A DNA stretch of 64,000 bases from Selaginella moellendorffii (GCF_000143415.4 NW_003314389.1:270892-334891); one strand, 5' to 3'; positions 2,048 to 64,000 are shown, counted from the stretch's first letter. Notes: generated by a model not told the origin, from the letters alone. Numbers and translations are program-made.

Positions 2048-2069
2048 GCTCTATTTCATTAAAGTGGGA
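2048..2069 (+). repeat. Terminal inverted repeat GCTCTATTTCATTAAAGTGGGA (copy 1, cargo-gene end)
   Basis: Exact reverse complement of 11259-11280. Confidence 0.92.
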
Positions 2070-2487
2070 ATTGTCATTATCCCACTTGTAAAATAAGGTT
2101 TCCAAACCTTTATATAGTATATAAATATAACAAAATTCAACTGCATTGAGGCACATGCCATTTTATTTTAAACAAGGAAATGTCTACTCAATCACTTCTC
2201 CTCCCCCTGCCACTACTTCACCTCTCTCTTCTCCTTGTCATCGTCGTCCAATTTCTTTCCATCCTTTTAATATTGGCTCAGTTGCTCCAAGTCTAGGTGG
2301 AGCCCAAGTCCCCATTCAATCTTTACTTTCCCCTTATTAATAAAACAACTTCGTAGACTTCCAATAACATGCTGTAACACTTCTAGTATAATGCAAATCC
2401 TCTCAAAGAATTGTCTTTTAATATTAATACAATGGCATGGAACCCCATGCCATAATAAGTTACATTTTTAAATAAATACATGCTATC

Positions 2488-5400: not shown

Positions 5401-7020
5401 GAAGCCGGCGGTCGACATCCCTCTTAATGAAATTTGGATACTGATCCAACTTCTCAGCTTTACTTTTCGTGGCATCCCGCAGCAGATCGATGAACTTGGG
5501 GGCCCCCTTCACGTACTTGTCGACGTCTTCATTTGACAACTCCAGCTCTTCCATCATCTCTTGCATGGTGTCGATGCTCACCCTCTCCACGGCCACTTGC
5601 TCGAAGATCCAATCCTTCAATAGCACACGAGCTCTCAGAGTCGTGCACAAGTCCTCGTATGTCACAATATGGCCGGGAGTCATTTTGGTCTTGTTGAAGA
5701 CTACCTCACCACGTAGAAGAGCATTAGCCACTGTCAGAAGGTCGTCGTCGTCTAGAGACCACGAGAAACGCAAGGCGTTGAGCTTCAAATCATTGGGCTT
5801 CCGGCTGTCCTCCACACCCATTGAGTTTAGCAACTCCCCATCATGGTACCTCCTCAGCACATCTACCCATTTGTCAAAAACAACTTTTGTCGCGAGTAGA
5901 ATGTTATGGATGCTGAGTGTGTCATTGACCCCCGTTGTTTTCGAGAGAAGACTCGAGAATTGGAAATGGCGTGAGGCCACATGCTATGCCACATGCAACG
6001 AGGCTTACCTGCCAGGCGCTAGTTGCTAGTGCACATCCTTATCCTGGTTTTTGTGGCTTTTTCAGTTGAACCCAGAGCTTCCGTGTTCGTGCCAATGTCT
6101 CGTGCAGACCCAATTTGTAGCACGTTTCTTGCTTGACATTCTGCGCATGGGAGATGTATATGATAGATCGGAGGGGCGAGTTGCCTTTTATCAGGCGGAC
6201 AACTCTTGTCTTGAAGACTTTCTTCACCTCCTCGCCCACCATAATATCCACAACTATCTCTTGTATCGCCAAGCTAGAATGCTGCCGGGAGACAGCATAG
6301 AACCGGATGTTCTGATCGTCCAACACCTTCCTATTGATCAAGTCTAGAAACCTCGTCTCGCCCTTCATTGTTCAGTAGTAGGGGATCACGTCTGCGATAT
6401 CGAGTGTTACTGGACTTGCCAGCATCTTCTGCTTCAGTTTCTCCACCCACTCATCAGATACTAGCCTGTGGTTGTATTTGCTTTGGATGTCAATGTGGCT
6501 CACGTCGATTGTATATACTTTGTTGGAATAGTAACAAGTACTATTATCTGCGACGATTTTTGCTGCCTCTTCTTGCTCTTTCTCCTCTTTGCGGCTCTTC
6601 TTTTTGGTGGGTGTAGTGTTCGAACTCGAGGCAATGGCATCACCGAGTAGCTTTTTTTTTGGAGTAGGAGAGTCGGACGTTAGCTTGAGCTTGACCACCC
6701 TTTTCTGCTTCGGGGTAGTTTCCAGATCGCCCCTTCGCTTCGCGAACTGGAGTCACTCTCAACGGCTCAATGTTGGAATATAGTTTTTGAACATCACCAT
6801 AGGTGAGGTCCGTGGATTCCATGTGATCTTCATAGACCCGCAGCGTCTTTGAAATTGTGGGCCTCCTGGACAACCTCTCCCTAGCTCCCTCTAGGAATTC
6901 CTCATAGCCGTTGCCCCCCTTCGGGAAGGCGCTAGGATGTGCAAGGTGAATCTTGAAGGTGGACGCTGTTTCTACCACAAGTGCCAGTCCATATTCTTGC
7001 ATGGAACTACATGGAGTGTC
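2488..7020 (-). pseudogene. Cargo gene of copy 1 (ParB-like / MTase-like / acidic linker / NIF-HAD phosphatase-like); 5'-truncated, with deletions and frameshifts
   Basis: ORFs 2537-3370 (YCIVFDLNGVL..IWTSM..LIIDDSP), 3407-3994, 4192-4815, 5084-5980, 6039-6698 and 6640-7065 match exons of the gene at 54160-63556. Confidence 0.85.
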
Positions 7021-7726
7021 TGGAGTGGGAGCGCGATGCGAGCGCGAGTACGAAGCAAAATGCAAAACCTAACCTCACACACGCGAAATGTCACGACGGT
7101 TGGTAATCCCACAACGTCATCATTTCTCGGACTTGGGTGCCACCATTAATTTCTGGATCGCCGCGCGCATGCATGCACGTGAAATCCAAAAGAAATCCGC
7201 AACGTCATCATTCCTCGGACTGCATGCACGCGAAATCCAAAAGAAAGATCATGATTAGGATATCATTTAATACCCTCGCTATATTTATACCATGCATGAT
7301 TGGATATTCCAAAGCATCTTGTATTTCCAAAAATGCCAGATGTTCAGCTAAATAAAGAATGGTATACAATGTCCTTCTTGATGACCCTGCAAAGAAGCAT
7401 CTCGATTGGACACCACATGAGACCACACAAGCCTTACCATGTTTCAGGGGCATTTGCCATAGATCCGACCGTTATTTTGCTCCAAGATTTTACAGTTTGG
7501 TGTGCATTGATCTTTCTATCGACACTGCAAAGGGACATCACAATCAGATGCGGGATCACAAGAAACTAACTTCACTAACTCTGGTTTCACCAAGATCTAC
7601 GTAAGGAGTTATGAAATGAAAGGACCCTCTCTATTGAAATGTGTTTATGGTCCTAGGGGCATTGTGACATATCAAAGGATTTTGCATCAAGTTCTGTATT
7701 TGCATGTTTATCAAGCTACTGAATTG

Positions 7727-7753
7727 CTAAACCCTAAACCCTAAACCCTAAAC
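7727..7753 (+). repeat. Interstitial plant telomeric repeat (CCCTAAA)n / telo-box cluster inside the transposon
   Basis: ctaaaccctaaaccctaaaccctaaac, located between the divergent genes. Confidence 0.9.
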
Positions 7754-8549
7754 ATGTGGCAAATGCTGCATGAAGAAAGATGCCCTTTCTGGGCAAATGC
7801 TGTAAGAGGCAGATGCCGAGCAGATGTATCTCAAGCTAGCGAAGGGGACAAACGAAAGCTAGCTATAAACATGACGGGATGCAAATAGATTACTAGGCTG
7901 GTCCTGCGAAAATCAAAAACCATAATTGAAAACATTGAAAATGCAAAAAGAAAGGTTTATAATATTTTTGAATTTTAAGCAACCAAAGGAATGTAAGTAG
8001 GGCATGTGTTTGTAAGTTTAAAAATGCCTCAACCATTTAAATTCCCAAGTAAATAAAGCTGTTTCTATTTTTGGTACAGGTAAACTTTATAGCGTGTGGG
8101 CTCATGCAATTTTGAACCCAAAAATGCACCAAAAAATGCTCGACTAGCATTATTCTTTGCATGGCATATGGCCTTATATTGCCATAAATGGACGTACACA
8201 CACAACATAATTATTCCTTTACACGGCGAATAATCTTGGCGCGGATCGCTGACATGGCATGGCAAAGTTCGAATCACTGACATGGCATAGCTAGATCGAG
8301 GCAAGGACATGATGTGACAAAGTTCAACCTCCGACAGCAAAGTCTAGAAGCTACTCAGTTTGAAATTTGTCAGAGGAATCATAAGATCTGGTTTGTCAGA
8401 GGATTTGATGTGACGTTCAAGCGTGTGTTATTTTTGAATTTTCGAACTCATTCCTAGGTCTATCATTTTTGTGTGCCGTGTTCTTGGTTCCGCTGAGCGC
8501 AGTGAGCGCTGCTTGTATAAGCGGCGTTGTGAGCTGTGGTTTATGCGTC

Positions 8550-8690
8550 TACGAGCGGTTGTGGCATTGCGAGCGCCATTGCGAGCGGCAGTTTATGCGA
8601 GTGGCAGTTTGTGCGAGCGGCGCTATGAGCAGTTGCGGTGTTGCGAGCGGCGCTACGAGTAGTTGCGGTGTTGCGAGCGGCATTGTCTTT
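8550..8690 (+). repeat. CpG-rich ~30-bp tandem repeat (GCGAGCGGCGCTACGAGTAGTTGCGGTGTT) upstream of the transposase
   Basis: About 3 units visible; homologue at 51030-51160 on the opposite strand. Confidence 0.75.
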
Positions 8691-9047
8691 GGTGTGGCTA
8701 CCGCTTCCTCTTGATATTCGGCACTTGTGCTTCCTGGTATGTTCACCATGGAATGGCTTAGGACCACATTTAGAAATGGCATGAGGCCACATGCCATCTT
8801 GGGCCCTTGCAATTTCATGGCTAGCTTATTATCATGTATGTTTTTACTTGCCTGCAGCTGTGTGTATATCAAGATGGCATGAGGGCTCATGCCAATTTTG
8901 TGAATGCGAAATTTCACGTGGGTGTCAATAGCATGTTTGAATAATGGCATGTGGCCTCATGCTATTGAGGTTGTTTGGTATGTTATGATTTAGGCCATTC
9001 TCCAATCATTTTTTGTATGGTCTTAACTTCTTTTCTGCACTTTCAGA

Positions 9048-10640
9048 ATGGCCTTCGCAAGTGCAATGCATGTTCCCTCTGTGGATCTTAAGAACCGTGC
9101 TACATGGATTCAGGCAAAGGTGTTTCTAAACAACCCCGAGGGGGAGGTGGTAGCTAAGGGCTTAGCCACAGTTGTCGATCCAAGAGATGCGGTTGCTAAT
9201 CAAAAATTGGGCTGGGATGATATTGGAGTTGCGATTTTAGAGGTTGTTGACACAGAAGAAAACAGTCTGACTATTGGAAGCATTGTGCGGTGGAAATTGA
9301 GGCACTTAGTGTTTGAGAATGTGAAGGATTCATAATCAAACACCACTACAACTGATGACAGAACATCTCTTCATGATAAAAGAAAGTACACCTTCCTAAA
9401 GCGCAGCCAAAGGGATCTGAGCAACGAACCGAAAAGGTAGAAAATGGTGATGGAGGTTCGAATGGTCTCGACAGTGGCTTGTTGCAAGAGGAGGTGCTGT
9501 CAACATGCTGATTGGGATGCTATTGAAGAGGAGAGAGCAAGATACAAGACATTGTCCTGGAAGGCAGCTCGCAATTTTGTGTATGAGGTATTACGGTCAT
9601 CTGTTGATGCTTCAGAACATCAGGTGGGGGGCATGGTCTTCCAGAGGGGTTTGGTCTGCATGAAGGCATGGAGAATCATTTATGGAGTCCCTCGAACCAT
9701 ATTCTACAGAATCAAAACTGAGTTCGAGGAACAAAGGGTTCAACAGGCAGTCCATGGGAACGACGGTACTCACAAAAGCAGGGGTCATGTTGTATATGGA
9801 GAGGCAATCTTCAAGAGGTTTGTCGAGACATGTAGCGAGCAGCAACCACATAAAACCCGCCTCTTGGAAGATGGAACTCGAGACACCCAACGAGTTCTCC
9901 CCTCCATGTATACCAAGGGGGCCATATTGGAAGATGTGAATCGGGAACTCCAGAGTAATGGCTACAGGAAGCTGAGCCAATCTAGATTTAGTAGATTATG
10001 GAGCAACAGGTTCAGGGATGTGAGTATAGGAAAGTACTCCAGCTTTTCAAAGTGTGACGAGTGCACTGCTATCAAAATGGCTTTGTCGAAGAATTCTTGC
10101 ATCACTCAAGAGCGAGAGACGTTGGTTAGAAGGTGGCTCGACCACAACATCGAGCAGAGAAGCTGCAGGACTGCATATTATCATAACAGGATTCTCTCCA
10201 TGGAGAGACCTGACTCTTACCTCTGCATCATCCACGACAAAGTAGACCAGAAAAAGACGTGCTTACCTCGACTCAATCCTGCCCCCAAGGCAATCTCTTC
10301 ATCCATGCAGCTGCCTGTGTCTCTGTTTGGCATAATCGCTCATGGGCATGGTGCCCAGAACTATGGGAACTTCTTTGTACCTCTATGGGGTGGCGGGGGT
10401 GCAAACATGATGATTGCGTCCCTAGCAAAACACTTAAGGTCTCTGCAAAGTGCGCAGACTGAGCTGAACGGCCAACCCTTGCATAAGGCCCTTGTCGATC
10501 GAACCCCATACAGGGTTCAGCTGGAGGAGGAGCAAAGGCTTGCAGTATCGCGTGGGGCCCCATGCCATCCCAGTGAATATGTTGGCCGTCAGATTGTAGG
10601 GTTATCACGTGAGGCCTCATGCCATTACGACGAGGTTGGT
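9048..10640 (+). pseudogene. Transposase, N-terminal ~530 aa (Tnp1/EnSpm-like domain, Cys-rich region, first catalytic Asp); C-terminus deleted
   Basis: ORFs 9048-9335 and 9444-10784 are in one frame, broken by TAA 9333 and TAG 9438. Motifs CCKRRCCQH, VCMKAWRIIYGV, FSKCDEC and CIIHDKVDQKK. Overlaps the copy-2 transposase from CLPRLNP to YDEVG. Confidence 0.85.
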
Positions 10641-11258
10641 CCTCATGCCATTTACTTGATCACCAAATACCTTTTTCCCTTTGCACTAGTATATCTTAAT
10701 ACCGGTTTGAGAAATAGAATGGCATGTGCCCTCAGGCCTTTTACTAAATCACCTTTGAAAGAAATGCAAGCCTCTATGTCGTAAAAAAAAGGTACTAGAG
10801 AAATTCCTTAATAATATGAATGTTATTTAGTTTCATGAAAATACACTAAGGGTCAAATGAGTTAAATGACTTCTCCAGACTAGCAATGCCTCTTGCTACA
10901 CCTTCACAATTAGATTCGTTAGAAAAAGATAACATTGAATAATATCTAAATGTTCTCACCATTAAGTTATATGTCTGGCTAATAGGAATGACGTTCATCT
11001 TGGAAAGCTCACCACACGCTCAATGAACAAACAAATAGTGTGTGCGCGCATGCCATCGCTCTTCTTTAGCTTCAGATTCGGCTTGTTCACCTTGACAATG
11101 AGATTTATTATACAACCAAATGGACTCAATCTGGACACAAAGTCACCGCGCTAGTCACCATGCCCCAGATATGTCTAGCCCCTGGACAAAAAACATATAA
11201 TTTCACGTCATTTTCAAATACTTGAAAGTTTGTACCTAGTCCCATTTTATTGAATAAA

Positions 11259-11280
11259 TCCCACTTTAATGAAATAGAGC
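11259..11280 (-). repeat. Terminal inverted repeat (copy 1, transposase end)
   Basis: TCCCACTTTAATGAAATAGAGC. Confidence 0.92.
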
Positions 11281-48447: not shown

Positions 48448-49061
48448 GCTCTATTTCGTTAAAGTGGGATTTATTCAGTAAAATGGGACTAGGTACAAAT
48501 TTTCAAGTATTTGAAAATGACGTGAAATTATATGTTTTTTGTCCAGGGGCTAGACATATCTGGGGCATGGTGACTAGCGCGGTGACTTTGTGTCCAGACT
48601 GAGTCCATCTGGTTGTATAAAAAATCTCATTGTCAAGGTGAACAAGCCGAATCTGAAGTTAAAGAAGAGAGATGGCATGCGCGCACACATTATTTGTTTG
48701 TTCATTGAGCGTGTGGTGAGCTTTCCAAGATGAACGTCATTCCTATTAGCCAGACATATAACTTAATGGTGAGAACATTTAGATATTATTCAATGTTATC
48801 TTTTTCTAACGAATCTAATTGTGAAGGTGTAGCAAGAGGCATTGCTAGTCTGGAGAAGTCATTTAACTCATTTGACCCTTAGTGTATTTTCATGAAACTA
48901 AATAACATTCATATTATTAAGGAATTTCTCTAGTACCTTTTTTTTACGACATAGAGGCTTGCATTTCTTTAAAAGGTGATTTAGTAAAAGGCCTGAGGGC
49001 ACATGCCATTCTATTTCTCAGACCGGTATTAAGATATACTAGTGCAAAGGGCCACATGCCA

Positions 49062-50750
49062 TCACGCCTCCTCTGATTCAGATTCGGATTGTTCACCTTG
49101 AAATAAAATACATTAGAAACTTAGTAAAGGAATATTAATGAATCTCACCTTGAACCCGGGTTATGAATGCTCTTGCTGCATCTCTTGCATGGTCTGGCAA
49201 GGTGATGGTGGCACTCTGCTTCCGCATCCAACCATGCACAACATTATCCACCGATATGCTCATGCTGGGATCCCTTGGATTCAGCACCCATCTCTTTTCT
49301 AGGCAATCCTTCGTATATCCGGAACTTGGCTTGAACCACTCCACAGTTACATTGAAGGAGTTAGTTTCCGCGTCCTCCTCTGCATTAGTGATGCAGCGCC
49401 CCACCCATATCATTTGTTTTTTATTACTGGGTCTGACAAGCACGACCATTCCTTTGCAGACCTGTACTGGATTGAATGCTGAATCCGGCTTCTTGTTCCT
49501 CGGCCCACAATAGTGATCCTCAACATCGTTATCTGTCACTGCATTTCCAGAGGACATTGTTCCGCTACTATCTGGTGCTCTGGGTTCTGGCCAAAAGGAC
49601 TCTTCCAATTCTTCATATACAACCGGCCCATTTTGGATAGCAGATATAATCTTCTCCCAGTATTCGAGCAAAGGCTTGCACCTCTTAAAATAGGATTCTC
49701 CACCAAACACCAACCCCCTCTTCCAGAAGGCAATATGCTGTCTAATCCCGGCCACTATACTTTCCTGGTCTTTGAGTCCATCCGGGTGCATCGGCCGTGG
49801 GGAACCCTGAGGAATCATAGGTTCCCCAATTATGGGATCTCTCTTGAAGAGTTCAATGCCATCCACTGGCAGCCACACTGTGTCCCATTCTCTCATCTTG
49901 TACCTCATCACTAGAGCACCGTCACGCATGCTGAAATGAAACTGAAGAGGCTTGGAGTGGCCAATCAGCGTTTCGGATCCGTCCCTGATGTAGCCTCTTA
50001 CAAACCCCTTAAAGTCTGGAACCTATGTCACAAGTGCAGCTTCAACAGTGCCTTTGATGCAATTTTGGAATTCATCGTAGAGTTGTGGGAGGGTGAGGAC
50101 ATTGGATCGCCGGAGGGACTCTGCCAGGTGACTGAACATGGCATCGACGTCTTCATGAGTGTGCCCAACCATGAGAAAGCCAAGTGTAACCGTTTCAAAT
50201 ATGCCTTTGGCAACAAGCATCGCCAAGTATGCGAAGACGTACATGTTTTTGTTCTCACTGCCAGCATTGTCTGTTTGGAGCAGAAGATGGGGTGGAAGGC
50301 CACATCGGCCGCAAGAACTTCCTTGAGATTCTGCTTCGTTTGGATGAGGCTGTGCATTCACCGGGCGACCAACCTCGTCGTAATGGCATGAGGCCTCACG
50401 TGATAACCCTACAATCTGACGGCCAACATATTCACTGGGATGGCATGGGGCCCCACGCGATACTGCAAGCCTTTGCTCCTCCTCCAGCTGAACCCTGTAT
50501 GGGGTTCGATCGACAAGGGCCTTATGCAAGGGTTGGCCGTTCAGCTCAGTCTGCGCACTTTGCAGAGACCTTAAGTGTTTTGCTAGGGACGCAATCATCA
50601 TGTTTGCACCCCCGCCACCCCATAGAGGTACAAAGAAGTTCCCATAGTTCTGGGCACCATGCCCATGAGCGATTATGCCAAATAGAGACACAGGCAGCTG
50701 CATGGATGAAGAGATTGCCTTGGGGGCAGGATTGAGTCGAGGTAAGCACG
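49062..50750 (-). pseudogene. Transposase, C-terminal part (catalytic core + C-terminal beta-barrel-like domain); N-terminus deleted
   Basis: LLLQTDNAGSENKN and FLMVGHTHEDVDAMFS motifs. ORFs 50023-50829 and 49135-49929 are in frame across one TAG. A short last intron gives ..RVQ/GEQSESESEEA*. Confidence 0.87.
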
Positions 50751-50822
50751 TCACCCATACAAAAATATATACAGTTGCAGCAAGGCAAAAGGAATATGGC
50801 AATAGGCTAGCAGGGGCCAAAG

Positions 50823-50844
50823 ATGGCATGAGGCCTCATGCCAT
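50823..50844. promoter_or_regulatory. Representative perfect copy of the element-wide palindrome ATGGCATGAGGCCTCATGCCAT (putative protein-binding site)
   Basis: Perfect dyad, extending to 28 bp (50820-50847); dozens of variants across both transposon copies. Function is inferred. Confidence 0.6.
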
Positions 50845-51478
50845 CTTGATATACACACAGCTGCAGGCAACTAAAAACATACATGACAATACGCTAGCCA
50901 TGAAATTGCAAGGGCCCAAGATGGCATGTGGCCTCATGCCATTTCTAAATGTGGTCCTAAACCATTCCATGGTGAACATACCAGGAAGCACAAGTGCCGA
51001 ATATCAAGAGGAAGCGGTAGCCACACCAAAGACAGTGCCGCTCGCAACACCGCAACTACTCGTAGCGCCGCTCGCAACACCGCAACTGCTCGTAGCGCCG
51101 CTCGCACAAACTGCCACTCGCATAAACTGCCGCTCGCAATGGCGCTCGCAATGCCGCAACCGCTTATAGACGCATAAACCACAGCTCACAACGCCGCTTA
51201 CACAAGCAGCGCTCACTGCGGTCAGCGGAACCAAGAACACGGCGCACAAAAATGATAGACCTAGGAATGAGTTCGAGAATTCAAAAATAACACACGCTTG
51301 AACGTCACATCAAATCCTCTGACAAACCAGATCTTATGATTCCTCTGACAAATTTCAAACTGAGTAGCTTCTAGACTTTGCTGTCGGAGGTTGAACTTTG
51401 TCACATCATGTCCTTGCCTCGATCCAGCTGTGCCATGTCAGTGATTCGAACTTTGCCATGCCATGTCAGCGATCCGCG

Positions 51479-53336
51479 CCAAGATTATTCGCCGTGTAAA
51501 GGAATAATTATGCTGTGTGTGTACGTCCATTTATGGCAATATAAGGCCACATGCCATTCAAAGAATAATGCTAGTCGAGCATCTTTTGGTGCATTTTTGG
51601 GTTCAAAATTGTATGAGCCCACATGCTATAAAGTTTACCTGTACCAAAAATAGAAACAGCTTTATTTACTTGGGAATTTAAGTGGTTAAGGCATTTTTAA
51701 ACTTACAAACACATGCCCTACTTACATTCATTTGGTTGCTTAAAATTCAAAAATATTATAAACCTTTCTTTTTGCATTTTCAATGTTTTCAATTATGGTT
51801 TTTGATTTTCGTAAGACCAGCCTAGTAATCTATTTGCATCCCGTCATGTTTATAGCTAGCTTTCGTTTGTCCCCTTCGCTAGCCTGAGATACATCTGCTC
51901 GGCATCTGCCTCTTACAGCATTTGCCCAGAAAGGGCATCTTTCTTCACGCAGCATTTGCCACATGTTTAGGGTTAGGGTTTAGGGTTTAGGGTTTAGCAA
52001 TTCAGTAGCTTGATAAACATGCAAATACAGAACTTGATGCAAAATCCTTGGATATGTCACAATGCCCCTAGGACCATAAACACATTTCAATAGAGAGGGT
52101 CCTTTCATTTCATAACTCCTTATGTAGATCTTGGTGAAACCAGAGTTATTGAAGTTGGTTTCTTGTGATCCCGCATCTGATTGTGATGTCCCTTTGCAGT
52201 GTCGATGGAAAGGTCAATGCACACCAAACTGTAGAATCTTAGAGCAAAATAACGGTCGGATCTATGGCAAATGCCTCTGAAAAATTGTAAGGCTCGTGTG
52301 GTCTCATGTGGTGTCCGATCGAGATGCTTCTTTGCAGGATCATCAAGAAAGACATTGTATACCATTCTGTAAAATCTAGTTGCGATCTAACGGTTGGATC
52401 TCCAGGAAACTCAAAACAATCTCGCGCGTGTTAGAATATTCTAGGAATATACTCCTATGTGCTCCAAGATTATTCGCCGTGTAAAGGAATAATTATGCTG
52501 TGTCATTTATGGCAATATAAGGCCACACGCCATTCAAAGAATAATGCTAGTCGAGCATTTTTTGGTGCATTTTTGGGTTCAAAATTGCATGAGCCCACAC
52601 GCTATAAAGTTTACCTATACCAAAAATAGAAACAGCTTTATTTACTTGGGAATTTAAGTGGTTGAGGCATTTTTAAACTTACAAACACATGCCCTACTTA
52701 CATTCCTTTGGTTGCTTACATTCCTTTGGTTGCTAGCTTTCGTTTGTCCCCTTCACTAGCCTGAGATACATTTGCTCGGCATCTGCCTCTTACAGCATTT
52801 GCCCAGAAAGGGCATCTTTCTTCACGCAGCATTTGCCACATGTTTAGGGTTTAGGGTTTAGGGTTTAGCAATTCAGTAGCTTGATAAACATGCAAATACA
52901 GAACTTGATGCAAAATCCTTGGATATGTCACAATCCCCCTAGGACCATAAACACATTTCAATAGAGAGGGTCCTTTCATTTCATAACTCCTTACGTAGAT
53001 CTTGGTGAAACCAGAGTTAGTGAAGTTGGTTTCTTGTGATCCCGCATCTGATTGTGATGTCCCTTTGCAGTGTCGATGGAAAGGTCAATGCACACCACAC
53101 TGTAGAATCTTGGAGCAAAATAACGGTCGGATCTATGGCAAATGCCCTTGAAACATTGTAAGGCTCGTGTGGTCTCATGTGGTGTCCGATCGAGATGCTT
53201 CTTTGCAGGGTCATCAAGAAGGACATTGTATACCATTCTGTAAAATCTAGTTGCGATCTAACGGTTGGATCTCCAGGAAACTCAAAACAATCTCGCGCGT
53301 GTTAGAATATTCTAGGAATATACTCCTATGTGCTCC
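51479..53336 (+). repeat. Direct tandem duplication of the intergenic/promoter region (51479-52465 repeated at 52464-53336)
   Basis: The second unit restarts at CCAAGATTATTCGCCG; both units contain the telomeric cluster. Confidence 0.85.
51965..51997 (+). repeat. Interstitial (TTTAGGG)n cluster
   Basis: gtttagggttagggtttagggtttagggtttag; a second cluster at 52842-52868. Confidence 0.9.
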
Positions 53337-53764
53337 TGAAAATGGCATGCGGCCCCACGCCATTCAAGAGATAACGCCAGATGACGCCGAGCATTTTTTG
53401 GTGCATTTTTTGGGATCAAAATTGCATGAGCCCACATGCTTGAACGTCACATCAAATCCTCTGACAATTTATTTAGCTGAACATCTGGCATTTTTGGAAA
53501 TACAAGATGCTTTGGAATATCCAATCATGCATGGTATAAATATAGCGAGGGTATTAAATGATATCCCAATCATGATATTTCTTTTGGATTTCGCGTGCAT
53601 GCAGTCCGAGGAATGATGACGTTGCAGATTTCTTTTGGATTTCACGCATGCGCGCGCCGATCCAGAAATTAATGGTGGCGCCCAAGTCCGAGAAATGATG
53701 ACGTGGCGGGATTACCAACCGTCGTGACATTTCGCGCGTGTGAGGTTAGGTTTTGCATTTTGCT

Positions 53765-53985
53765 TCGTACTCGCGCTCGCACACTCGCGCTCGCATCGCG
53801 CTCCCACTCGCGCTCGCATCGCGCTCCCACTCGCGCTCGCATCGCGCTCCCACTCGCGCTCGCATCGCGCTCCCACTCGCGCTCCCACTTCTCTACAGGT
53901 TTCTCGTGTGCATCGGCGTCCACTCGCGCTTGCATCACACTCGCGCTCGCATCGCGCTCGTGTGCATCGGCGTCCACTTCAAGAC
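53765..53985 (+). repeat. CpG-rich 23-bp tandem repeat (CACTCGCGCTCGCATCGCGCTCC)n upstream of the cargo gene
   Basis: About 5 near-perfect units plus variants. Confidence 0.88.
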
Positions 53986-54159
53986 ACACCCAGTTTGTAA
54001 CTTCGCCGCCAACTCCGCCGCCCACTCCGCCACCCACACGCAGCCCACTTGGCGTCCCGGGAGATTTCAGCGCCAGAGTAGCCTTGCTGCTACGATCCGC
54101 TGCACACACAGTGCACATTCGCCAGCGAGTCCGGTTGTCACGCCTCCATTCGGCTTCAA

Positions 54160-57100
54160 ATGGTAAGTCTTTTAGGCCAAGTAGAAAATGGCATGAGGCC
54201 ACATGCCATTCAGTAGCAACATTGGCATGCACCGATTGGGCTCTCGAGTGCAGTCCGGTTACAGATGGCGTGTAGCCTCACGCCATCTTAGGATGCAGCC
54301 TCAAGACATCTGATGCAGTGGTGAATGGCGTGTGGCCTCACGTTATTTCCAGCTACTAGCTTTTCATCTGTCAGCTCTAATTGTTGTGCATTTCTGAACA
54401 GGCGAGGAATTGCATTCTTCTTCCAGCCACTGTCAATGTGGATGCAGAGAAGGGGGAGGAGCTCACCAGTTAGACTTTCGAGATGGAAGGCGAGGATCTG
54501 AGGCTGTACAACACAGATGGTGGGAGAAAAGAATGCATGGGGATCCTCATCCAAGTGACAGACACTCCATGCAGTTCCATGCAAGAATATGGACTGGCAC
54601 TTGTGGTAGAGACAGCATCTGCCTTCAAGATCCACCTTGCACATCCTAGCGGCTTCCCGGAGGGGGGCAGCGGCTATGAGGAATTCCTAGAGGGAGTTAG
54701 GGAGAGGTTGTCCAGGAGGCCCACAATTTCAAAGACGCTACGGGTCTATGAAGATCACATGGAATCCACGGACCTCACCTACGGCGATGTTCAAAAACTA
54801 TATTCCAACATTGAGCCGTTGAGAGTGACTCCAGTTCGCGAAGCAAAGGGGAAGGGGGTCGATCTGGAAACTACCTCGAAGCAGAAAAGGGTGGTCAAGC
54901 TCAAGCCGACGTCCGACTCTCCTGCTCCAAAAAAGAAGTTACTCAGTGATGCCATTGCCTCGGGTTCGAACACTACACCCACCAAAAAGAAGAGCCGCAA
55001 AGAGCAGAAAGAGCAAGAAGAGGCAGCAAAAATCGTCGCAGATAATAGTACTTGTTACTATTCCAACAATGTATATACAATCGACGTGAGCCGTATCGAC
55101 ATCCAAAGCAAATACAACCACAGGCTAGTATCTGATGAGTGGGTGGAGAAACTGAAGCAGAAGATGCTGGCAAGTCCAGTAACACCCGACATCGCAGACG
55201 TGATCCCCTACTACCGAACAATGAAGGGCGAGACGAGGTTTCCAAACTTGATCAATAGGAAGGTGTTGGATGATCAGAACATCCGGTTCTATGCCGTCTC
55301 CGGGCAGCATTCTAGCTTGGCGATGCAAGAGATAGTTGTGGATATTATGGTGGGCGAGGAGGTGAAGAAAGTCTTCAAGACAAGAGTTGTCCGCCTGATA
55401 AAAGGCAACTCGCCCCTCCGATCTATCATATACATCTCCCACGCGCAGAATGTCAAGCAAGAAACGTGCTACAAATCGGGTCTGCACGAGACATTGGCAC
55501 GAACACGGAAGCTCTGGGTTCAACTGAAGAAGCCACAAAAACCAGGACAAGGACGTGCACTAGCAACTAGCGCCTGGCAGGTAAGCCTCGTTGCATGTGG
55601 CATAGCATGTGGCCTCACGCCATTTCCATTGCAGGAATTCTCGAGTCTTCTCTCGAAAACACTGGGGGTCAATGACACACTCAGCATCCATAACATACTA
55701 CTCGCGACAAAAGTTGTTTTTGACAAATGGGTAGATGTGCTGAGGAGGTACCATGACGGGGAGTTGCCAAACTCAATGGGTGTGGAGGACGGCCGGAAGC
55801 CCAATGATTTGAAGCTCAACGCCTTGCGTTTCTCGCGGTCTCTAAACGACGACGACCTTCTGACAGTGGCTAATGCTCTTCTACGTGGTGAGGTTGTCTT
55901 CAACAAGACCAAAATGACTCCCGGCCATATTGTGACATACGAGGACTTGTGCACGACTCTGAGAGCTCGTGCGCTATTGAAGGATTGGATCTTCGAGCAA
56001 GTGGCCGTGGAGAGGGTGAGCATCGACACCACGCAAGAGATGATGGAAGCGCTGGAGTTGTCAAATGAAGACATCGACGAGTACGTGAAGGGGGCCCCCA
56101 AGTTCATCGATCTGCTGCGGGATGCCACGAAAAGTAAAGCTAAGAAGTTGGATCAGTATCCAAATTTCATTAAGATTGATGTCGACCGCCGGCTTCAGAA
56201 ACAGCTCGACCCCGCAGCAGAGGCCTATCGAGAACCTTACCGGGTATACTTGAATTCGGATGAGGATCAAAGGTGGAGGAGCATCGTTTCCCGCGGAGAT
56301 GAGCAGGTCAAGAACATCTTTTGTGTGATGGACTTCACAAACGAGGAGATCACTCATGCAGACGAAGTCAGCTCCATCATTGACTTAATGGTGGGACTTG
56401 CGGAGGTGGAATCTTCAGTCCACTATATGATCTACGACTCCGAATCCTATCACAAGTTCTGGAAGGCCTTGAACGAGGTGAAGGCTCGGTTGAAAGGCAA
56501 AGAGATGCGGGAGATCCATGGGATAATGGCTAAGAAGAAAATACCGACGAATGTCCGCATCTTCACACTCGCCCTTGTTATTGGTCCTGCAGCAGAGTGG
56601 GACTGGAGTGACTTCCCAGCTTCATTCGACAAGGCCGATCGAATTGATCTGAGGGAGGTCAATTTACCCGTGCCTGAGGAACTGAAGACGGCTATGGAGC
56701 TTTCGAATCCAGAGAAAGCTCCAGGTGCAGCATGGGAAATGCTCAACTGGGTCTTCAACGCAATAGCGGGTGGGTCACCTGCTTCCGACTCCAAGGGCAA
56801 ATGCGTTGTCGAGTACAACTGCGGCGGACTATTCTTTCGAGCCGCACTACTCAAGGGTGTCCCGTGTGTTGCGGTGACAAACTCCATTGAAGAGGTGACT
56901 TCAATGGAGCATATAATTACAGTTGCCAAAGAAAAATAGTATCTTCTCTGCGAACCTAGTGAGTACGCACTTTAAGTTTAAATGTTATCTCACAAGCTCT
57001 GTATGCAGGAGTGTGGCCACCCCCAGATGCTGAAACGGCGTTAACAGCTACTGTTGAAGATACCCATGTTGGGCCGAGCTCACAACTTGCACAAGGTAAG

Positions 57101-60100
57101 GTCACGTGAGGCCTCACGCCATTTTGATTATAGATCGTTGTGAATATTCAGACACGAGGACTGAAAAGCGCACTGGTGGCGCATCGAAGAAGGACAAACA
57201 GACAAGCAATAGGAAAAAAGGAGGTACAAATTATATTTGCAATGGCGTGTGGTCTCATGCCATTCCTTGCAGGAGACACTTCTTCAAAGGCAAAACAAGC
57301 AAGCACCAGCCAAGTACAACGGACGAGAGGTACCAATCATTTTTGTTATACGTGAATTCTCATGCCATTGCTTCTTGCAGCTCAAATTCCAAAGAGACTA
57401 AGGCAAGCAGCGCAGACCTCACGACAAGAACCTGAAGGTTTGATGGCGTGTGGCCCCACTCAATTAACTAATGTTCTTGCAGATCGCGTCGAGGAAATCG
57501 AACGGAACAACGTGCCTCCAGTGGAGGAGGGGGAGGCCTCGAAGAGTGATAAGGAGAGTTCCGAAACAGGTACGATCATGACATATGGCCCTATGCACTT
57601 ATCTAAGTTTGTATTTCAGGGGAACGAGTTGAACCAATGGAAAACTTTATGAAAGGTAACTAAAAAATATTATGGGATGTTGCATGTGTTGATGCAATAA
57701 TATACAGTTCAAGTGCCAAGGAGATGTCGTGAACCTTGAATTAGGCTACCTACAAAACAACTTTCAGACGCTGTAGACAAAGAGATGGACAACCGACCAG
57801 GGCAGAGGAGGAAGGGTAAAAGCATTTGTATGCTTATCGCGTATGTCCTCATGCTATTTCTGTAGAACGGGTGCATAAAAAACGAAAGCGAAAGGGAATT
57901 GAGGAGCAGGCACCTGAGGATGCCGAAGGCACGACAGAGCCTCCAAGGACGGGAAGTAAAGCGTCATGGTTATTGCGTGGGTCCTCATGCCATTTCTTGC
58001 AGATCAAGCTCAAACTGACAGTGGTCATAAAAAGCGAAAGCACGTTGGACAGTCGTCGGGATCAGAGGCGTTTGATTCGAAAAGGAAGAAGGGCAATGAA
58101 AAGATGATAGGTAATGCCTCACGGTTATGGCGTGTGTGCTCATGCCATTCATTGCAGATCAAGGGCTGAGTGAAAGCAGCCAGTCACCACCTCCTGACTC
58201 AGATTCCTATGGTGGACTCCCCTTCCCCAATCTCAATGGAGAGGTACAATGGATGAGGGATGCTTTTCAAGTCAGGGCCACGTTTTTCTCATCTCGTCGT
58301 CTTCGAAGGGTGCAAGAACGTGCAGAAACCATGTTAAGACAGTCGGGTGAGGATACGGTCCTAGGTCACGCACTAAAACAGGCTATGGATGTCTTGTATT
58401 TTGAGATGGAGATTGGGCCAGATGATTTTCCCAAGATGGTCCTGGAAGAACAAGCCATCCAGCCTGAGCAGCCTATGGAAGAAATGTAGGAGGGGGATGA
58501 GGAGCCAGAGAAAGATAATGAGCAGGAAGAGCAGAAGGACGAAGAGGAGGACAAAGAAGAGGAGGACGAAGAAGAGGAAGATGAAGAAGAGGAGGACGAA
58601 GAGGACTTGGATGGTCCTCACAATGGTGACGATCACAATAACGACGATGACGATGATGACGACGATGGCCAGCCTGAGGTGGCCAAAGAGCAGCGGAGGA
58701 AGGTCATACAAGACAAACCATCAGGTAAATAATAGTACATCCATTCCTAACCTTTTACCATTTCTAACATTGTCCATGTAGGTCGCAGAGCAAATGGTAA
58801 GTAGAGATTATTCAGTTGAATTAAGATACAAACTCTAGCCTTTAGTGTCGAGGAAGGATAGTGCCAAGCAAGGGTCGAAACGTATGTCCAATCCTTCAGA
58901 ATCAGCAGTGCGCCCAAGTGATATTGGTCCTAGTTCCTCAATAGCAGTTGATGGTAAATACAGTATAGTCGATTCAATGTGCTAATGAGTTTGTTTTTAG
59001 TAGCACGGGAGGATACCATCTCAATCGAAGGGAGATATTTGGACATGCATATGGATCCGCCAGTGGACTCTACTTGCCTGTAAGAGTCATCAGAACTGGT
59101 GGAGGCTACTATCCATATCAACGCCAAGCAAGCTGACCACGCTCCACTTGATGCTGCCCATACCACTGAGTCAATCTTGTCCACGTATCCAACTGACGGT
59201 GACCAGGCGCCATTGGACCCGCATGAGGCCGCCCCAGCCGTCGAGCCGGTCGTATCCTCATTTCCAACGGACTCAACGTGTGCCCAATCGTCTGACTATG
59301 CGCCGTTGGAACCTCCCTACACCGCCCTTGCTGCCTGTTCGGTCATGTCCACTTTGCCAACGGAGGCACCAACTGAAATGGCGTGTGATCACACGCCATC
59401 AGAACCACCCCATGCCACTATTGAGCCAGTTGTACCAGAGTCTACAGCTGAAATGGCATGTGCCCACACGCCATCGGATGCGATTGACCCCAACCTTTAC
59501 AGCTCCACTAGCACCATCTTCAGCACCACCATCGACAATGGGGAGTTGCTAAACTCAATGGGTGTGGAGGACGGCCGGAAGCCCAATGATTTGAAGCTCA
59601 ACGCCTTGCGTTTCTCGCGGTCTCTAGACGACGACGACCTTCTGACAGTGGCTAATGCTCTTCTACGTGGTGAGGTAGTCTTCAACAAGACCAAAATGAC
59701 TCCCGGCCATATTATGACATACGAGGACTTGTGCACGACTCTGAGAGCTCGTGCACTATTGAAGGATTGGATCTTCGAGCAAGTGGCCGTGGAGAGGGTG
59801 AGGATCGACACCACGCAAGAGATGATGGAAGAGCTGGAGTTGTCAAATGAAGACATCGACGTACGTGAAGTACGTGAAGGGGGCCCCCAAGTTCATCGAT
59901 CTACTGCGGGATGCCACGAAAAGTAAAGCTGAGAAGTTGGATCAGTATCCAAATTTCATTAAGAGGGATGTCGACCGCCGGCTTCAGAAACAGCTCAACC
60001 CCGCAGCAGAGGCCTATCGAGAACCTTACCGGGTATACTTGAATTCGGATGAGGATCAAAGGTGGAGGAGCATCGTTTCCCGCGGAGATGAGCAGGTCAA

Positions 60101-63100
60101 GAACATCTTTTGTGTGATGGACTTCACAAACGAGGAGATCACTCATGCAGACGAAGTCAGCTCCATCATTGACTTAATGGTGGGACTTGTAGAGGTGGAA
60201 TCTTCAGTCCACTATATGATCTATGACTCCGAATCCTATCACAAGTTCTGGAAGGCCTTGAACGAGGTGAAGGCTCGGTTGAAAGGCAAGGAGATGCGGG
60301 AGATCCATGGGATAATGGCTAAGAAGAAGATACCGACGAATGTCCGCATCTTCACACTCGCCCTTGTTATTGGTCCTGCAGCAGAGTGGGACTGGAGTGA
60401 CTTCCCAGCTTCGTTCGACAAGGCCAATCGAATTGATCTGAGGGAGGTCAATTTACCCGTGCCTGAGGAACTGAAGACGGCTATGGAGCTTTCGAATCCA
60501 AAGAAAGCTCCAGGTGCAGCATGGGAAATGCTCAGCTGGGTCTTCAACGCAATAGCGGGTGGGTCACCTGCTTCCGACTCCAAGGGCAAATGCGTTGTCG
60601 AGTACAACTGCGGCGGACTATTCTTTCGAGCCGCACTACTCAAGGGTGTCCCGTGTGTTGCGGTGACAAACTCCATTGAAGAGATGACTTCAATGGAGCA
60701 TATAATTACAGTTGCCAAAGAAAAACAGTATCTTCTCTGCGAACTTGGTGAGTACACACTTTAAGTTTAAATGTTATCTCACAAGCTCTGTATGCAGGAG
60801 CGTGGCCACCCCCAGATGCTGAAACGGCGTTAACAGCTACTGTTGAAGATACCCATGTTGGGCCGAGCTCACAACCTGCACAAGGTAAGGTCACGTGAGG
60901 CCTCACGCCATTTTGATTATAGATCGTTGTGAATATTCAGACACGAGGACTGAAAAGTGCACTGGTGGCGCATCGAAGAAGGACAAACAGAAAAGCAATA
61001 GGAAAAAAGGAGGTACAAATTATATTTGCAATGGCGTGTGGTCTCATGCCATTCCTTGCAGGAGAAACTTCTTCAAAGGCAAAACAGGCAAGCACCAGCC
61101 AAGCTCAAACTGACAGTGGTCATAAAAAGCGAAAGCACGTTGGACAGTCGTCGAGATCAGAGGCGTTTGATTCGAAAAGGAAGAAGGGCAACGAAAAGAT
61201 GATAGGTAATGCCTCGCGGTTATGGCGTGTGTGCTCATGCCATTCATTGCAGATCAAGGGCTGAGTGAAAGCAAGCAGTCACCACCTCATGACTCAGATT
61301 CCTATGGCAGACTCCCCTTCCCCAATCTCAATGGAGAGGTACAATGGATGAGGGAAGCTTTTCAAGTCAGGGCCACGTTTTTCTCATCTCGTCGTCTTCG
61401 AAGGGTGCAAGAACGTGCAGAAACCATGTTAAGACAGTCGGGTGAGGATACGGTCCTAGGTCACGCACTAAAACAGGCTATGGATGTCTTGTATTTTGAG
61501 ATGGAGACTCGGCCAGATGATTTTCCCAAGATGGTCCTGGAAGAACAAGCCATCCAGCCTGAGCAGCCTATGGAAGAAATGCAGGAGGGGGATGAGGAGC
61601 CAGAGAAAGATAATGAGCAAGAAGAGCAGAAGGACGAAGAGGAGGACAAAGAAGAGGAGGACGAAGAGGACTTGGATGGTCCTCACAATGGTGACGATCA
61701 CAATAACGACGACGACGATGATGACAACGATGGCCAGCCTGAGGTGGCCAAAGAGCAGCGGAGGAAGGTCATACAAGACAAACCATCAGGTAAATAATAA
61801 TACATCCATTCCTAACCTTTTACCATTTCTAACATTGTCCATGTAGGTCGCAGAGCAAATGGTAAGTAGAGATTATTCAGTTGAATTTACAAACTCTAGC
61901 CTTTAGTGTCGAGGAAGGATAGTGCCAAGCAAGGGTCGAAACGTATGTCCAATCCTTCAGAATCAGCAGTGCGCCCAAGTGATATCGGTCCTAGTTCCTC
62001 AATAGCAGTTGATGGTAAATACAGTATAGTCGATTCAATGTGCTAATGAGTTTGTTTTTAGTAGCACGGGAGGATACCATCTCAATCGAAGGGAGATATT
62101 TGGACATGCATATGGATCCGCCAGTGGACTCTACTTGGCTGCAAGAGTCATCAGAGCTGGTGGAGGCTACTATCCATATCAACGCCAAACAAGCTGACCA
62201 CACTCCACTTGATGCTGCCTATACCACTGAGTCAATCTTGTCCACGTATCCAACTGACAGTGACCAGGTGCCATTGGACCCACATGAGGCCGCCCCAGCC
62301 GCCGAGCCGGTCGTATCCTCATTTCCAACGGACTCAATGTGTGCCCAATCGTCTGACTACGCGCCGTTGGAACCTCCCTACACCGCCCCTACTGCCTGTT
62401 CGGTCATGTCCACTTTGCCAACGGAGGCACCAGCTGAAATGGCGTGTGATCACACGCCATCGGAACCACCCCATGCCACTGTTGAGCCAGTTGTACCAGA
62501 GTCTACAGCTGAAATGGCATGTGCCCACACGCCATCGGATGCGATTGACCCCACATTGCAGAGGAGAGTATTTCCGCCCTTCACGTTTCCTCGACCAAAA
62601 CCCTCTCAACGACCATCGGGAGCAACATTCGCTAATATTGTAGATGGTAAAATTGACTTGTACCATTTTTTATGCTGACGCATTTCATTTCAGAGTCACG
62701 GTGAAGGTACTGTATCGTTTTTGATCTAAACGGTGTCCTTTTCTCCCATGAGCGTGGCTCGTCCTCGAATGTCATTGCACCCTCCAAAGCCTGCGGTCGC
62801 AAGTTGGTCAAAAGAGACAGATTCACATTAATCACACGGGAGAAACTGCGGGATCTAATAATGACCATGCGACACTTAAAACAGAGGGCCGGGTTCAATT
62901 TGCAATTGGGAGTTTGGACATCCATGATGCGCCACAATGCATTAACGTTGCTACAGATGATGCACGATCAGACGCGAGTAATATTACCATTTGACTTTCT
63001 CCTAACGCAGGAGGATTGCTTGACTATGGTCCATGTGAGGGGTAGCAAGCCCATCTTCGTCAAGCCAGAGGCTGTAGTGATGAACCGGACTGCTAGCTCA

Positions 63101-63556
63101 AGTGAAATCCTCATCATCGATGACTCGCCGATTAAAACTGCAGCGAACACGCACACATATGCAGTGCACCCCATCTCTTGCAGTATGGAAACTAGGGAGA
63201 AGAAACCGTATGTTCTGGGGGACCTTGCAAAACGGCTTGGAGCGATGGTGATAGAGAACCGGCCAGTCCAGGAGGTGGCTGCAGAAATCAACCAAATGGC
63301 AGATGGAACGGTATATCAGAAGCCATTTGATCGGACAGACACCAGTCATCATTTATGGCATGTATATTGTCTAGCCAAGCACTATCCGCATCTCCATAAT
63401 CTGCTCAACCGGATGGGTTCTTCGACCACTGAACATGAGCGTGGACGTATTAGAGAAGAGATGGCATTACTATTGGGTTTAAATCCTGATAGTGTGGAGA
63501 GTGATGAAATTCCAAGATTATTGTATAGGCGTTGGAGGCAAAAAATAACAGTCTGA
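54160..63556 (+). CDS. Multi-exon transposon cargo gene: ParB/Srx-like + degenerate N4/N6 DNA-MTase-like + low-complexity linker + NIF/FCP1-like HAD domain (this copy has point stops and an internal duplication)
   Basis: ATG 54160, intron 54163-54401, 818-aa ORF with in-frame intron 55581-55634, then 14 phase-1 GT-AG introns keeping frame up to the DLNGVL/WTS/IIDDSP domain ending at TGA 63554-63556. Confidence 0.8.
59538..62552 (+). repeat. Internal tandem duplication of cargo-gene segment 55756-59490 (second unit lacks ~690 bp)
   Basis: Sequence restarts at GGGGAGTTGCTAAACTCAATG; ORFs 59847-60764 and 61222-61797 duplicate earlier ones. Confidence 0.9.
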
Positions 63557-64000
63557 GATGGCATGTATTTATTTAAAAATGTAACTTATTATGGCATGGT
63601 GTTCCATGCAATTGTATTAATATTAAAAGACAATTCTTTGAGAGGATTTGCATTATACTAGAAGTGTTACAGCATGTTATTGGAAGTCTACGAAGTTGTT
63701 TTATTAATAATGGGAAAGTAAAGATTGAATGGGGACTTGGGCTCCACCTAGACTCGGAGCAACTGAGCCAATATTAAAAGGATGGAAGGAAATTGGACGA
63801 CGATGACAAAGAGAAGAGAGAGGTGAAGCAGTGGCAGGGGGAGGAGAAGTGATTGAGTAGACATTTCCTTGTTTAAAATAAAATGGCATGTGCCTCAATG
63901 CAGTTGAATTTTGTTATATTTATATACTATATAAAGGTTTGGAAACCTTATTTTACAAGTGGGATAATGACAATTCCCACTTTAACGAAATAGAGCTTCT

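What the first reader, a model, noticed from the sequence alone, without database searches (positions are those of the whole stretch)
56959..59003. Run of tiny, all phase-1 introns with symmetric micro-exons; many introns house the palindrome
Thirteen consecutive introns of 45-57 nt separate exons of 87, 72, 57, 57, 87, 36, 108, 90, 108, 567, 15 and 108 nt, all multiples of 3. Eight of them (57096, 57224, 57330, 57438, 57570, 57816, 57956, 58111) contain the 22-mer or a decayed version, often just before the acceptor. Introns may serve to embed binding sites in a coding region, perhaps by exon+intron unit amplification or motif-driven intron gain. The hairpin near the branch point could also make splicing regulatable.
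Basis: partly seen in the sequence, partly recalled or inferred. Interest (0 to 1): 0.75.

Follow-up and report, generated by a model that had tools for sequence, protein, structure and literature searches.

The report
Transposon introns hiding palindromic binding sites
A plant jumping gene carries a predicted run of tiny same-phase introns, eight of thirteen holding the element's own 22-base mirror-image DNA word, which is likely a landing site for a protein the element encodes and in six introns is predicted to double as the splicing branch point.

Summary
The 13 GT-AG introns (45-57 nt) are at the stated places and are all phase 1. Frame-blind splice scoring recovers 12 exactly; 8 of 13 hold the palindrome. 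No RNA junction read was obtained, so splicing is predicted. They lie in the low-complexity linker of a ~1,780-aa accessory gene (ParB-fold, degenerate methylase-like, NIF domains) of a decayed TIR transposon with a DUF7869 transposase. The palindrome is element-wide, not intron-making: it also sits in two phase-0 introns (one at a position shared with relatives) and in exons. Two metagenomic relatives share three intron positions but fill them with different palindromes. Two intron pairs arose by unit duplication. Most copies lack five of the exons through an in-frame deletion. In six introns the palindrome's right arm supplies the only or best branch-point-like word at -15 to -19. Best reading: a VANC-like self-recognition array parked in introns, probably read by the ParB-fold protein (untested). 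The design is described in algae, and this scan found it before in other genomes. The branch-point overlap is the new part.

The parts
48448..63996 (.). TIR DNA transposon, copy B (decayed; carries internal duplications)
   Evidence: 22-bp terminal inverted repeats at 48448-48469 and 63975-63996; contigs of run X4 diverge from the window at 48448; about 96-98% identical to copy A
2048..11280 (.). Second copy (A) of the element, inverted; holds the transposase N-terminal part (about 9049-10640, +) that copy B lacks, and carries the in-frame deletion
49138..50835 (-). DUF7869 DDE-type transposase, C-terminal two thirds (broken); two palindromes (50383, 50440) lie in its open frame
   Evidence: Pfam PF25273 E 1.8e-37; alignment with relatives
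54160..56958 (+). Accessory gene, 5' part: ATG 54160, intron 54163-54401, exon 54402-55580 (ParB/Srx fold), intron 55581-55634, exon 55635-56958 (helical region and degenerate N4/N6-methylase-like region)
54163..54401 (+). Phase-0 intron with three palindromes (54188, 54265, 54325)
   Evidence: one contig of run X3 starts at 54401 with 27 unrelated letters before it
55581..55634 (+). Phase-0, 54-nt intron with a palindrome (55602) 11 nt before the acceptor; position shared with relatives
   Evidence: RefSeq model P0042 reads WQ|EF as the spliced window frame does; six other relatives break off at this point, five of them with a V right after the break
56959..59003 (+). The finding: 13 predicted phase-1 introns of 45-57 nt and 12 symmetric exons encoding a 463-codon E/D/S/R/K/Q-rich linker
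57224..57437 (+). Duplicated intron+exon pair (introns 57224 and 57330, each followed by a 57-nt exon)
   Evidence: 11 of 15 identical bases 5' of the motif when left-anchored; exon DNA itself not significantly alike
57956..58165 (+). Duplicated intron pair 57956/58111 (both 47 nt, exons both start ATCAAG)
   Evidence: 11 of 14 identical bases 5' of the motif, 6 of 8 at the exon start
57311..58004 (+). 694-bp segment (6 introns, 5 whole exons, 399 coding nt) missing in frame from most copies; 4-bp microhomology at the joint
   Evidence: joint 57310->58005 at depth 86.5 against 3.4 inside the segment, run X4; same joint in copy A and in the internal duplicate
57242..58148 (+). Acceptor-adjacent palindromes (57242, 57347, 57836, 57972, 58127; also 55602) whose right arm reads CTCAY with the A at -15 to -19
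59378..59474 (+). Two palindromes inside a coding exon, 75 nt apart (59378, 59453)
59540..62553 (+). Tandem duplicate of about 55758-59492, of the deleted type, which interrupts the gene
62647..63556 (+). 14th phase-1 intron (62647-62693, 47 nt, no motif) and last exon encoding a NIF/HAD-like domain fused to the same predicted protein
   Evidence: Pfam PF03031 E 3.8e-06

Best explanation
The predicted tiny phase-1 introns lie in the linker of a transposon's accessory gene and likely serve as parking places for the element's own 22-base palindrome, which is likely bound as DNA by the element's ParB-fold protein so that the element recognises and protects itself. Shown by sequence: the palindrome (ATGGCRTG-W-GG/CC-W-CAYGCCAT) is confined to the element and is spread over its ends, introns and a few exons. 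Inferred: sites settle in introns that already exist, because there they cost no coding change, and in six short introns the right arm is predicted to have taken over the branch point, which would tie the site to splicing. Inferred: because the linker is low-complexity and its exons are symmetric, exon+intron units can be duplicated or dropped without a frameshift, which changes the number of sites (two duplications and one in-frame deletion are seen). Inferred by analogy with VANDAL/VANC and with ParB/parS: a ParB-fold dimer would load at the palindromes and coat the element against host silencing. Its methylase-like region is likely catalytically dead.
For: Motif 24 hits in 11.1 kb of the element, 0 in 37 kb outside; 11 of 13 hits in the gene are intronic. 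Over 27 sites (54 arms) the CpG position reads CA 31, CG 19, TG 1, with both arms constrained alike; neutral CpG decay would give CA and TG about equally. The same test with those positions left free in detection gave CA 24: TG 3. The N-terminal domain models at high confidence and matches ParB/Srx folds: PadC Z 9.5 (rmsd 3.0, 98 aligned), KorB Z 8.9, Pnob8-like ParB Z 8.6 over 209 residues; Foldseek lists Noc and ParB at E 0.014-0.1. 8 of 58 DUF7869 loci of >=2.5 kb carry their own recurring palindrome (7 families; null maximum 1-2; both window controls negative). L016 has 0 of 20 motifs in its conserved coding mask. L016 and L044 share three intron positions and hold different palindromes in them. 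Duplicated units; in-frame deletion. 13 of 15 short introns have a YTNAY word with A at -14 to -19 (shuffle rate 0.10-0.30 each). In the six acceptor-adjacent introns the arm supplies it, 0 of 6 have another YTRAN word against 10 of 10 other introns, and 6 of 6 have the T that makes CTCAY against 7 of 21 other sites (p 0.006; 0.026 with duplicates collapsed). VANC21 binds motifs in introns, and VANC genes vary by exon/intron tandem repeats (PMC5735166, section 9 read whole, other passages).
Against: No RNA junction is shown. One contig of run X1 (RNA only by guess) crosses the 58157 acceptor unspliced. This copy has 5 stops and an interrupting duplication. Most copies have lost 5 of the 8 motif-bearing introns, so those sites are dispensable for copies that spread, perhaps in trans. 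Exon similarity among units is slight. The -14 to -19 window was chosen after seeing the data, and the branch-point words are recalled consensus, not mapped lariats. Foldseek gave no match at E<=0.001.
Confidence: 0.55

Rival explanations
1. The palindromes are DNA sites for the transposase (or another element protein), used to assemble or bridge a long element; the ParB-fold protein is not the reader. Intron housing and unit duplication are as in the best explanation.
For: Family-specific palindromes occur beside DUF7869 transposases in loci where no ParB-fold gene was detected. Sites cluster near both ends (48672-49041, 63591, 63883).
Against: Those loci are 2.5-12 kb pieces and may lack the accessory gene. 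ParB-fold accessory genes accompany inverted repeats in red-algal Plavaka elements of another superfamily (10.1101/2025.02.11.637652, section 8 read). The palindrome is not part of the TIR.
Confidence: 0.2
2. The palindrome acts mainly in RNA: its hairpin hides the branch point, so that splicing of the accessory gene is switched by folding or by the gene's own product.
For: The predicted branch A is paired in the minimum-energy fold of 57224, 57330, 57816, 57956 and 58111; 57224 and 58111 fold at z -2.5 and -2.0. By my reading of the list, sense-strand R/Y variants give G-U in 7 sites and A-C in 2.
Against: 7 of the 9 motif-bearing short introns fold no better than shuffles (z -1.6 to +1.1). 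Left arms of the acceptor-adjacent sites carry 8 mismatches against 1 in right arms. Many sites lie between genes, near the ends or in exons, far from any acceptor. In L016 and L044 most intronic sites lie 35-266 nt from the acceptor.
Confidence: 0.1
3. The introns were made by the motif: a small motif-bearing unit inserted repeatedly at G|N sites and was spliced out (introner-like gain).
For: 8 of 13 hold the motif, and all share phase and size.
Against: Only two pairs are alike beyond the motif. The motif sits at 8-29 nt from the acceptor. It is also in phase-0 introns, one at a position shared with Selaginella and other relatives. Orthologous introns in L016 and L044 hold different motifs.
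Confidence: 0.07
4. The predicted introns are not used, or the whole array is a neutral relic of a dead element; the motif spread only by local duplication.
For: Five stops, broken transposases in both copies, and most copies lack the core of the run. One possibly-RNA contig keeps intron 58111.
Against: Frame-blind scoring recovers the parse. 14 introns in one phase has a chance of about 6e-7 if phases are equally likely. Three of the five stops are sense codons in the duplicate copy and one in other runs' contigs; the fifth lies in the segment that only this copy has. The motif shows position-specific constraint.
Confidence: 0.08

Closest known systems
VANDAL21/VANC21 anti-silencing system of Arabidopsis (PMC5735166; section 9 whole, passages of sections 7, 8, 10, 11; figures and supplements not seen)
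   Same: An element-specific motif concentrated in introns, intergenic and terminal DNA. Motif numbers change by tandem gain and loss. The accessory gene has a variable region whose exon/intron layout is tied to tandem repeats.
   Different: VANC21's motif is a 9-bp non-palindromic word in same-orientation arrays, the element is Mutator-type and the protein has DUF1985/DUF287. Here the motif is a 22-bp palindrome at most once per short intron, the transposase is DUF7869 and the protein has a ParB fold. Binding and demethylation are shown for VANC and untested here.
Sola1-1_Ec32 of Ectocarpus (PMC12477816; passages only)
   Same: A giant TIR transposon with a ParB-like plus N4/N6-methylase accessory gene on the strand opposite the transposase, proposed to bind and modify its own element.
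   Different: The word 'palindrom' does not occur in its main text (supplements not seen). Here the methylase-like region lacks the DPPY-type motif (recalled) in all 11 aligned rows, and the protein adds a phase-1 micro-exon linker and a NIF domain.
PAG3 of red-algal Plavaka transposons (bioRxiv 10.1101/2025.02.11.637652; section 8 whole, other passages; supplements closed)
   Same: A ParB-like accessory protein with inverted repeats of the element proposed as its binding sites.
   Different: There the repeats are tandem arrays beside the gene, the effector is a 2OG oxygenase and the transposase is EnSpm/Plavaka. Here the sites are dispersed, largely one per intron.
Bacterial ParB/Noc/KorB with parS-type palindromes (structures; mechanism recalled)
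   Same: ParB/Srx fold followed by a helical region; dispersed palindromes with symmetric constraint.
   Different: The nucleotide-site motif reads SGQHS; CTP use, clamp loading and sliding are untested; there is no ParA partner.
Introner elements (recalled, not read)
   Same: Many short introns of similar length in one gene.
   Different: These introns are not near-identical copies, and the motif also occupies an old intron position.

Membership tests
TIR DDE transposon (Sola-like; label recalled) | Terminal inverted repeats | tested here: met
   22-bp TIR at both ends of both copies; X4 contigs diverge at 48448
TIR DDE transposon (Sola-like; label recalled) | D..D..E catalytic-type motifs in the transposase | tested here: met
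   QxDN..ENKN and invariant FLMVGHTHEDxD in 13 aligned sequences; the first D (HDKVDQ) read in copy A; DUF7869
TIR DDE transposon (Sola-like; label recalled) | Target-site duplication of the superfamily's length | tested here: inconclusive
   No clear duplication flanks either copy; only 4 bases lie beyond copy B's right end
TIR DDE transposon (Sola-like; label recalled) | Placement in Sola1/2/3 by reference profile | not testable with these tools
   No such profile is held; the defining paper is not held; 'DUF7869' is in 0 papers of the library
ParB + N4/N6-methylase accessory protein (Sola1-1_Ec32 type) | ParB-like domain | tested here: met
   Z 9.5/8.9/8.6 to PadC, KorB and Pnob8-like ParB; Pfam gives no ParB hit
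ParB + N4/N6-methylase accessory protein (Sola1-1_Ec32 type) | N4/N6 DNA methylase domain with catalytic motifs | tested here: inconclusive
   Atlas score 0.90 to PF01555 clusters, 146-153 shared features; motif-I-like VVEYNCGG present, DPPY-type motif absent in 11 of 11 rows; model pLDDT 46; no solved methylase found by profile
ParB + N4/N6-methylase accessory protein (Sola1-1_Ec32 type) | Gene on the strand opposite the transposase inside one element | tested here: met
   Transposase on -, accessory gene on +, between the TIRs
ParB + N4/N6-methylase accessory protein (Sola1-1_Ec32 type) | Binds or modifies its own element | not testable with these tools
   Needs binding and methylation assays; only proposed in the papers read
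VANDAL/VANC | Mutator-type transposase and VANC domains DUF1985/DUF287 | tested here: not met
   Pfam scans gave DUF7869 and NIF, and no Mutator or VANC domain; the linker exons were not scanned
VANDAL/VANC | Element-specific motif enriched in introns and other non-coding DNA | tested here: met
VANDAL/VANC | Gain and loss of motif-bearing repeat units between copies | tested here: met
   Two duplicated units; in-frame loss of six introns in most copies
VANDAL/VANC | [quoted passage not shown] | not testable with these tools
   No methylome; CpG o/e of element parts 0.50-0.88 against 0.62-0.67 for two retrotransposon ORFs is not decisive
Introner elements | Family of near-identical introns along their whole length | tested here: not met
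   Of 15 pairs among the six acceptor-adjacent introns, 2 are alike outside the motif

The most novel reading that the evidence does not exclude
A transposon hard-wires its self-recognition sites into its own gene by making one arm of a protein-binding DNA palindrome the branch point of tiny introns. A site then cannot be lost without losing splicing, symmetric exon+intron units let the site count expand and contract, and the ParB-fold product could feed back on its own splicing. Family-specific palindromes turning over inside fixed introns would be a general design of DUF7869 transposons, from plants to unnamed eukaryotes in metagenomes.
Probability: 0.25. Interest if true: 0.75.

Novelty: new variant of a known kind. 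Interest (0 to 1): 0.45.

Why it matters
[quoted passage not shown] ParB-fold accessory genes have been proposed to do so but were not tested in the papers I read. This element gives a defined 22-bp candidate site, a candidate reader, and natural long and short variants. The overlap of the site with the predicted branch point, and different palindromes in the same introns of related elements, make it testable how a transposon accumulates recognition sites without breaking its genes. The small size of the introns is probably ordinary for the host.

Tried and rejected
No whole genome is held, so the comparison with host introns could not be made. No RNA holder was listed. Three raw RNA runs (about 12% of each read) laid 7, 3 and 10 reads, none over 56442-58465, and gave no joints; four contig runs gave no splice joint (X4, of unrecorded kind, was laid as a fifth contig run for the DNA picture). 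Contigs entering introns 55581, 58725, 58797 and 58954 do so by fewer than 31 letters and are not counted. Word-index protein searches with the accessory ORF and with alignment A1 found nothing; the full HMMER scan found 15 proteins, of which P0028 and P0033 looked spurious and were left out of the alignments. A metagenome scan with the ParB-fold alignment found 103 pattern matches and no relative. The palindrome has 0 exact matches in viral contigs. The methylase-like region gave a poor model (pLDDT 46) and was not fold-searched; the wide fold search of the long model gave nothing above Z 5.9 for it. The transposase profile matched no solved structure. NCBIfam gave nothing useful. No target-site duplication could be fixed. 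Paper searches that found nothing on point; one search returned only the two algal papers as relevant by title. Supplements of the papers were not read and may describe repeats in those elements. Rejected: motif tied to phase 1 (it is also in phase-0 introns and exons); the 694-bp segment as a separate insertion (its ends fall inside exons, its introns keep frame and carry the element's motif; a 4-bp duplication cannot be wholly excluded).
Full report
Setting. The window is mostly repeats. Two inverted copies of one element (2048-11280 and 48448-63996) flank a block of Ty3/gypsy retrotransposon pieces. Both copies end in the same 22-bp inverted repeat. The element has a DUF7869 transposase, broken in both copies, and on the other strand a long accessory gene. 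Relatives of that gene that carry a name come from Selaginella moellendorffii, Calypogeia and Riccia at 18-30% identity, so the host is a land plant. Earlier notes on this genome say Selaginella; I did not test that.

Check of the observation. All 13 introns and 12 exon lengths are as stated. A scorer that ignores frame recovered 12 exactly and the 13th with an acceptor 3 nt away, against 0-2 calls in four controls. With the start at 54160 the first two introns are phase 0 and the 13 are phase 1. A 14th phase-1 intron at 62647-62693 joins a NIF-like exon to the same frame, for about 1,780 codons in all (my sum of exon lengths). Splicing is predicted, not shown: no junction read was obtained, and one contig of a run that is RNA only by guess keeps intron 58111. 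Intron size is probably ordinary. One paper says S. moellendorffii introns are about 35% shorter than Arabidopsis ones (PMC3442193, passage); I have no host distribution.

The gene. Residues encoded by 55059-56936 model with good confidence in the first 380 positions. The N-terminal domain matches ParB/Srx folds (PadC Z 9.5, KorB 8.9, Pnob8-like ParB 8.6 with 209 aligned), and Foldseek's weaker list includes Noc and ParB. The next region resembles N4/N6 methylases by language-model features (0.90) but lacks a DPPY-type motif (recalled) in all 11 aligned rows, and its model is poor. The micro-exons encode a 463-codon linker rich in E, D, S, R, K and Q. This copy has five stops and an interrupting duplication.

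Did the motif make the introns? The evidence says no. The motif is in the phase-0 introns 54163 (three sites) and 55581, and in exons (59378, 59453, and twice in the transposase frame). The 55581 junction matches a RefSeq model of a Selaginella relative (WQ|EF), and six other relatives break off there. Among the best 80 of 322 DUF7869 relatives in metagenomes, 8 of the 58 loci of 2.5 kb or more have a recurring palindrome of their own. L016 has 0 of 20 sites in its conserved coding part. L016 and L044 splice to aligned, stop-free transposases through three introns at the same positions and phases, with one palindrome family in all three introns of L016 and a different one in two of L044's. Sites therefore turn over inside introns that persist. 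None of these loci showed a ParB-fold homolog, which leaves open which protein reads the sites.

Why all phase 1? Two pairs are alike outside the motif: 57956/58111 (both 47 nt, 11 of 14 bases, same exon start) and 57224/57330 (11 of 15 bases, both followed by 57-nt exons); the other 13 pairs among the six compared are not. Exon DNA is mostly unrelated (2 of 55 pairs at p<=0.01), so duplication is shown for part of the run and inferred for the rest. The reverse process is seen too. In run X4 the element lies at about 85-100-fold depth, but 57311-58004 at 3.4, with a joint 57310->58005 at 86.5; copy A and the internal duplicate have that joint. It removes six introns and 399 coding bases, in frame (my count; a 1-in-3 event by chance). 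The full run is thus a minority form. This expansion and contraction parallels VANC genes, whose exon/intron layouts are tied to tandem repeats and whose target motifs lie in introns (PMC5735166).

Is the motif a protein site? At the CpG of each arm the 27 sites read CA 31, CG 19, TG 1, and detection with those positions free gave CA 24: TG 3. Plain methylation decay would give both alike, so C5/G18 is constrained while R6/Y17 is free, in both arms. That fits a dimer reading double-stranded DNA. Binding is untested.

Branch point. 13 of 15 short introns of the gene have a YTNAY word with its A at -14 to -19 (shuffle rates 0.10-0.30). In six introns the palindrome ends 8-12 nt before the acceptor and its right arm is that word. 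These six have no other YTRAN word (0 of 6 against 10 of 10 other introns), and all have the T that makes CTCAY (6 of 6 against 7 of 21 other sites; p 0.026 with duplicates collapsed). Their right arms carry 1 mismatch against 8 in left arms, while 18 other sites carry 18 and 14. The window was chosen after seeing the data and the consensus is recalled. The pattern suggests dual use of the arm. It does not suggest a selected hairpin: only 57224 and 58111 fold clearly better than shuffles. In L016 and L044 most sites are far from acceptors, so the overlap is particular to this family.

Comparison and novelty. ParB-like plus methylase accessory genes opposite a transposase are described for Ectocarpus Sola1-1_Ec32 (PMC12477816), and ParB-like PAG3 with inverted repeats for red-algal Plavaka. 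Earlier notes of this scan report the same design, including about one palindrome per intron, in fungal, plant, protist and mussel elements; I did not check those. The element is not a VANDAL by its domains but likely works like one.

Verdict. A real feature, pending RNA proof, and a new variant of a known kind: interest 0.45. The general design is described, the copy is dead and tiny introns are probably normal for the host. The predicted branch-point overlap and the motif turnover in fixed introns are the parts worth testing.

Noticed in passing
L016 3115-4486 and L044 1940-3300: Two DUF7869 transposases from unnamed eukaryotes share three intron positions but carry different 19-bp palindromes with the same outer TCA...TGA; L016 has 20 copies, none in conserved coding DNA.
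   Followed up: yes
L060 51-351; L018 1083-3351; L001 641-1584; L002 632-926; L027 2590-3210: Further family-specific palindromes beside DUF7869 transposases, including a 47-bp-spaced array in L060 and near-perfect palindromes of about 30 bp in L018.
   Followed up: partly
window 62647-63556: A NIF/HAD-like domain, with DLNG in place of the usual DxDxT (recalled), is predicted to be fused to the ParB-fold protein through a 14th phase-1 intron.
   Followed up: partly
window 59493-62553: Copy B is chimeric: a full-length-type segment is followed, after about 46 bases of filler, by a duplicate of the deleted type.
   Followed up: partly
window 51979, 52843 and 7732: Short plant telomere-type repeats (TTTAGGG) lie inside the element between its two genes, in both copies.
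   Followed up: no
window 54050-54601: A few raw RNA reads (depth about 1-2, all first mates on the minus strand) from sister copies cover the 5' end and first intron of the accessory gene; one X3 contig begins at the 54401 acceptor with 27 unrelated letters before it.
   Followed up: partly
window 9049-10640 and 49138-50835: The two copies have complementary deletions of the transposase gene: copy A keeps the N-terminal part, copy B the C-terminal part.
   Followed up: partly
window 11900-44400: Nested Ty3/gypsy retrotransposon pieces with long arrays of 11-12, 23 and 35-bp tandem repeats, in both orientations.
   Followed up: no
L027 3303-8089: A DUF7869 transposase locus with several upstream ORFs, one of which (7085-8089) reads like a cytosine methyltransferase by eye; not scanned.
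   Followed up: no
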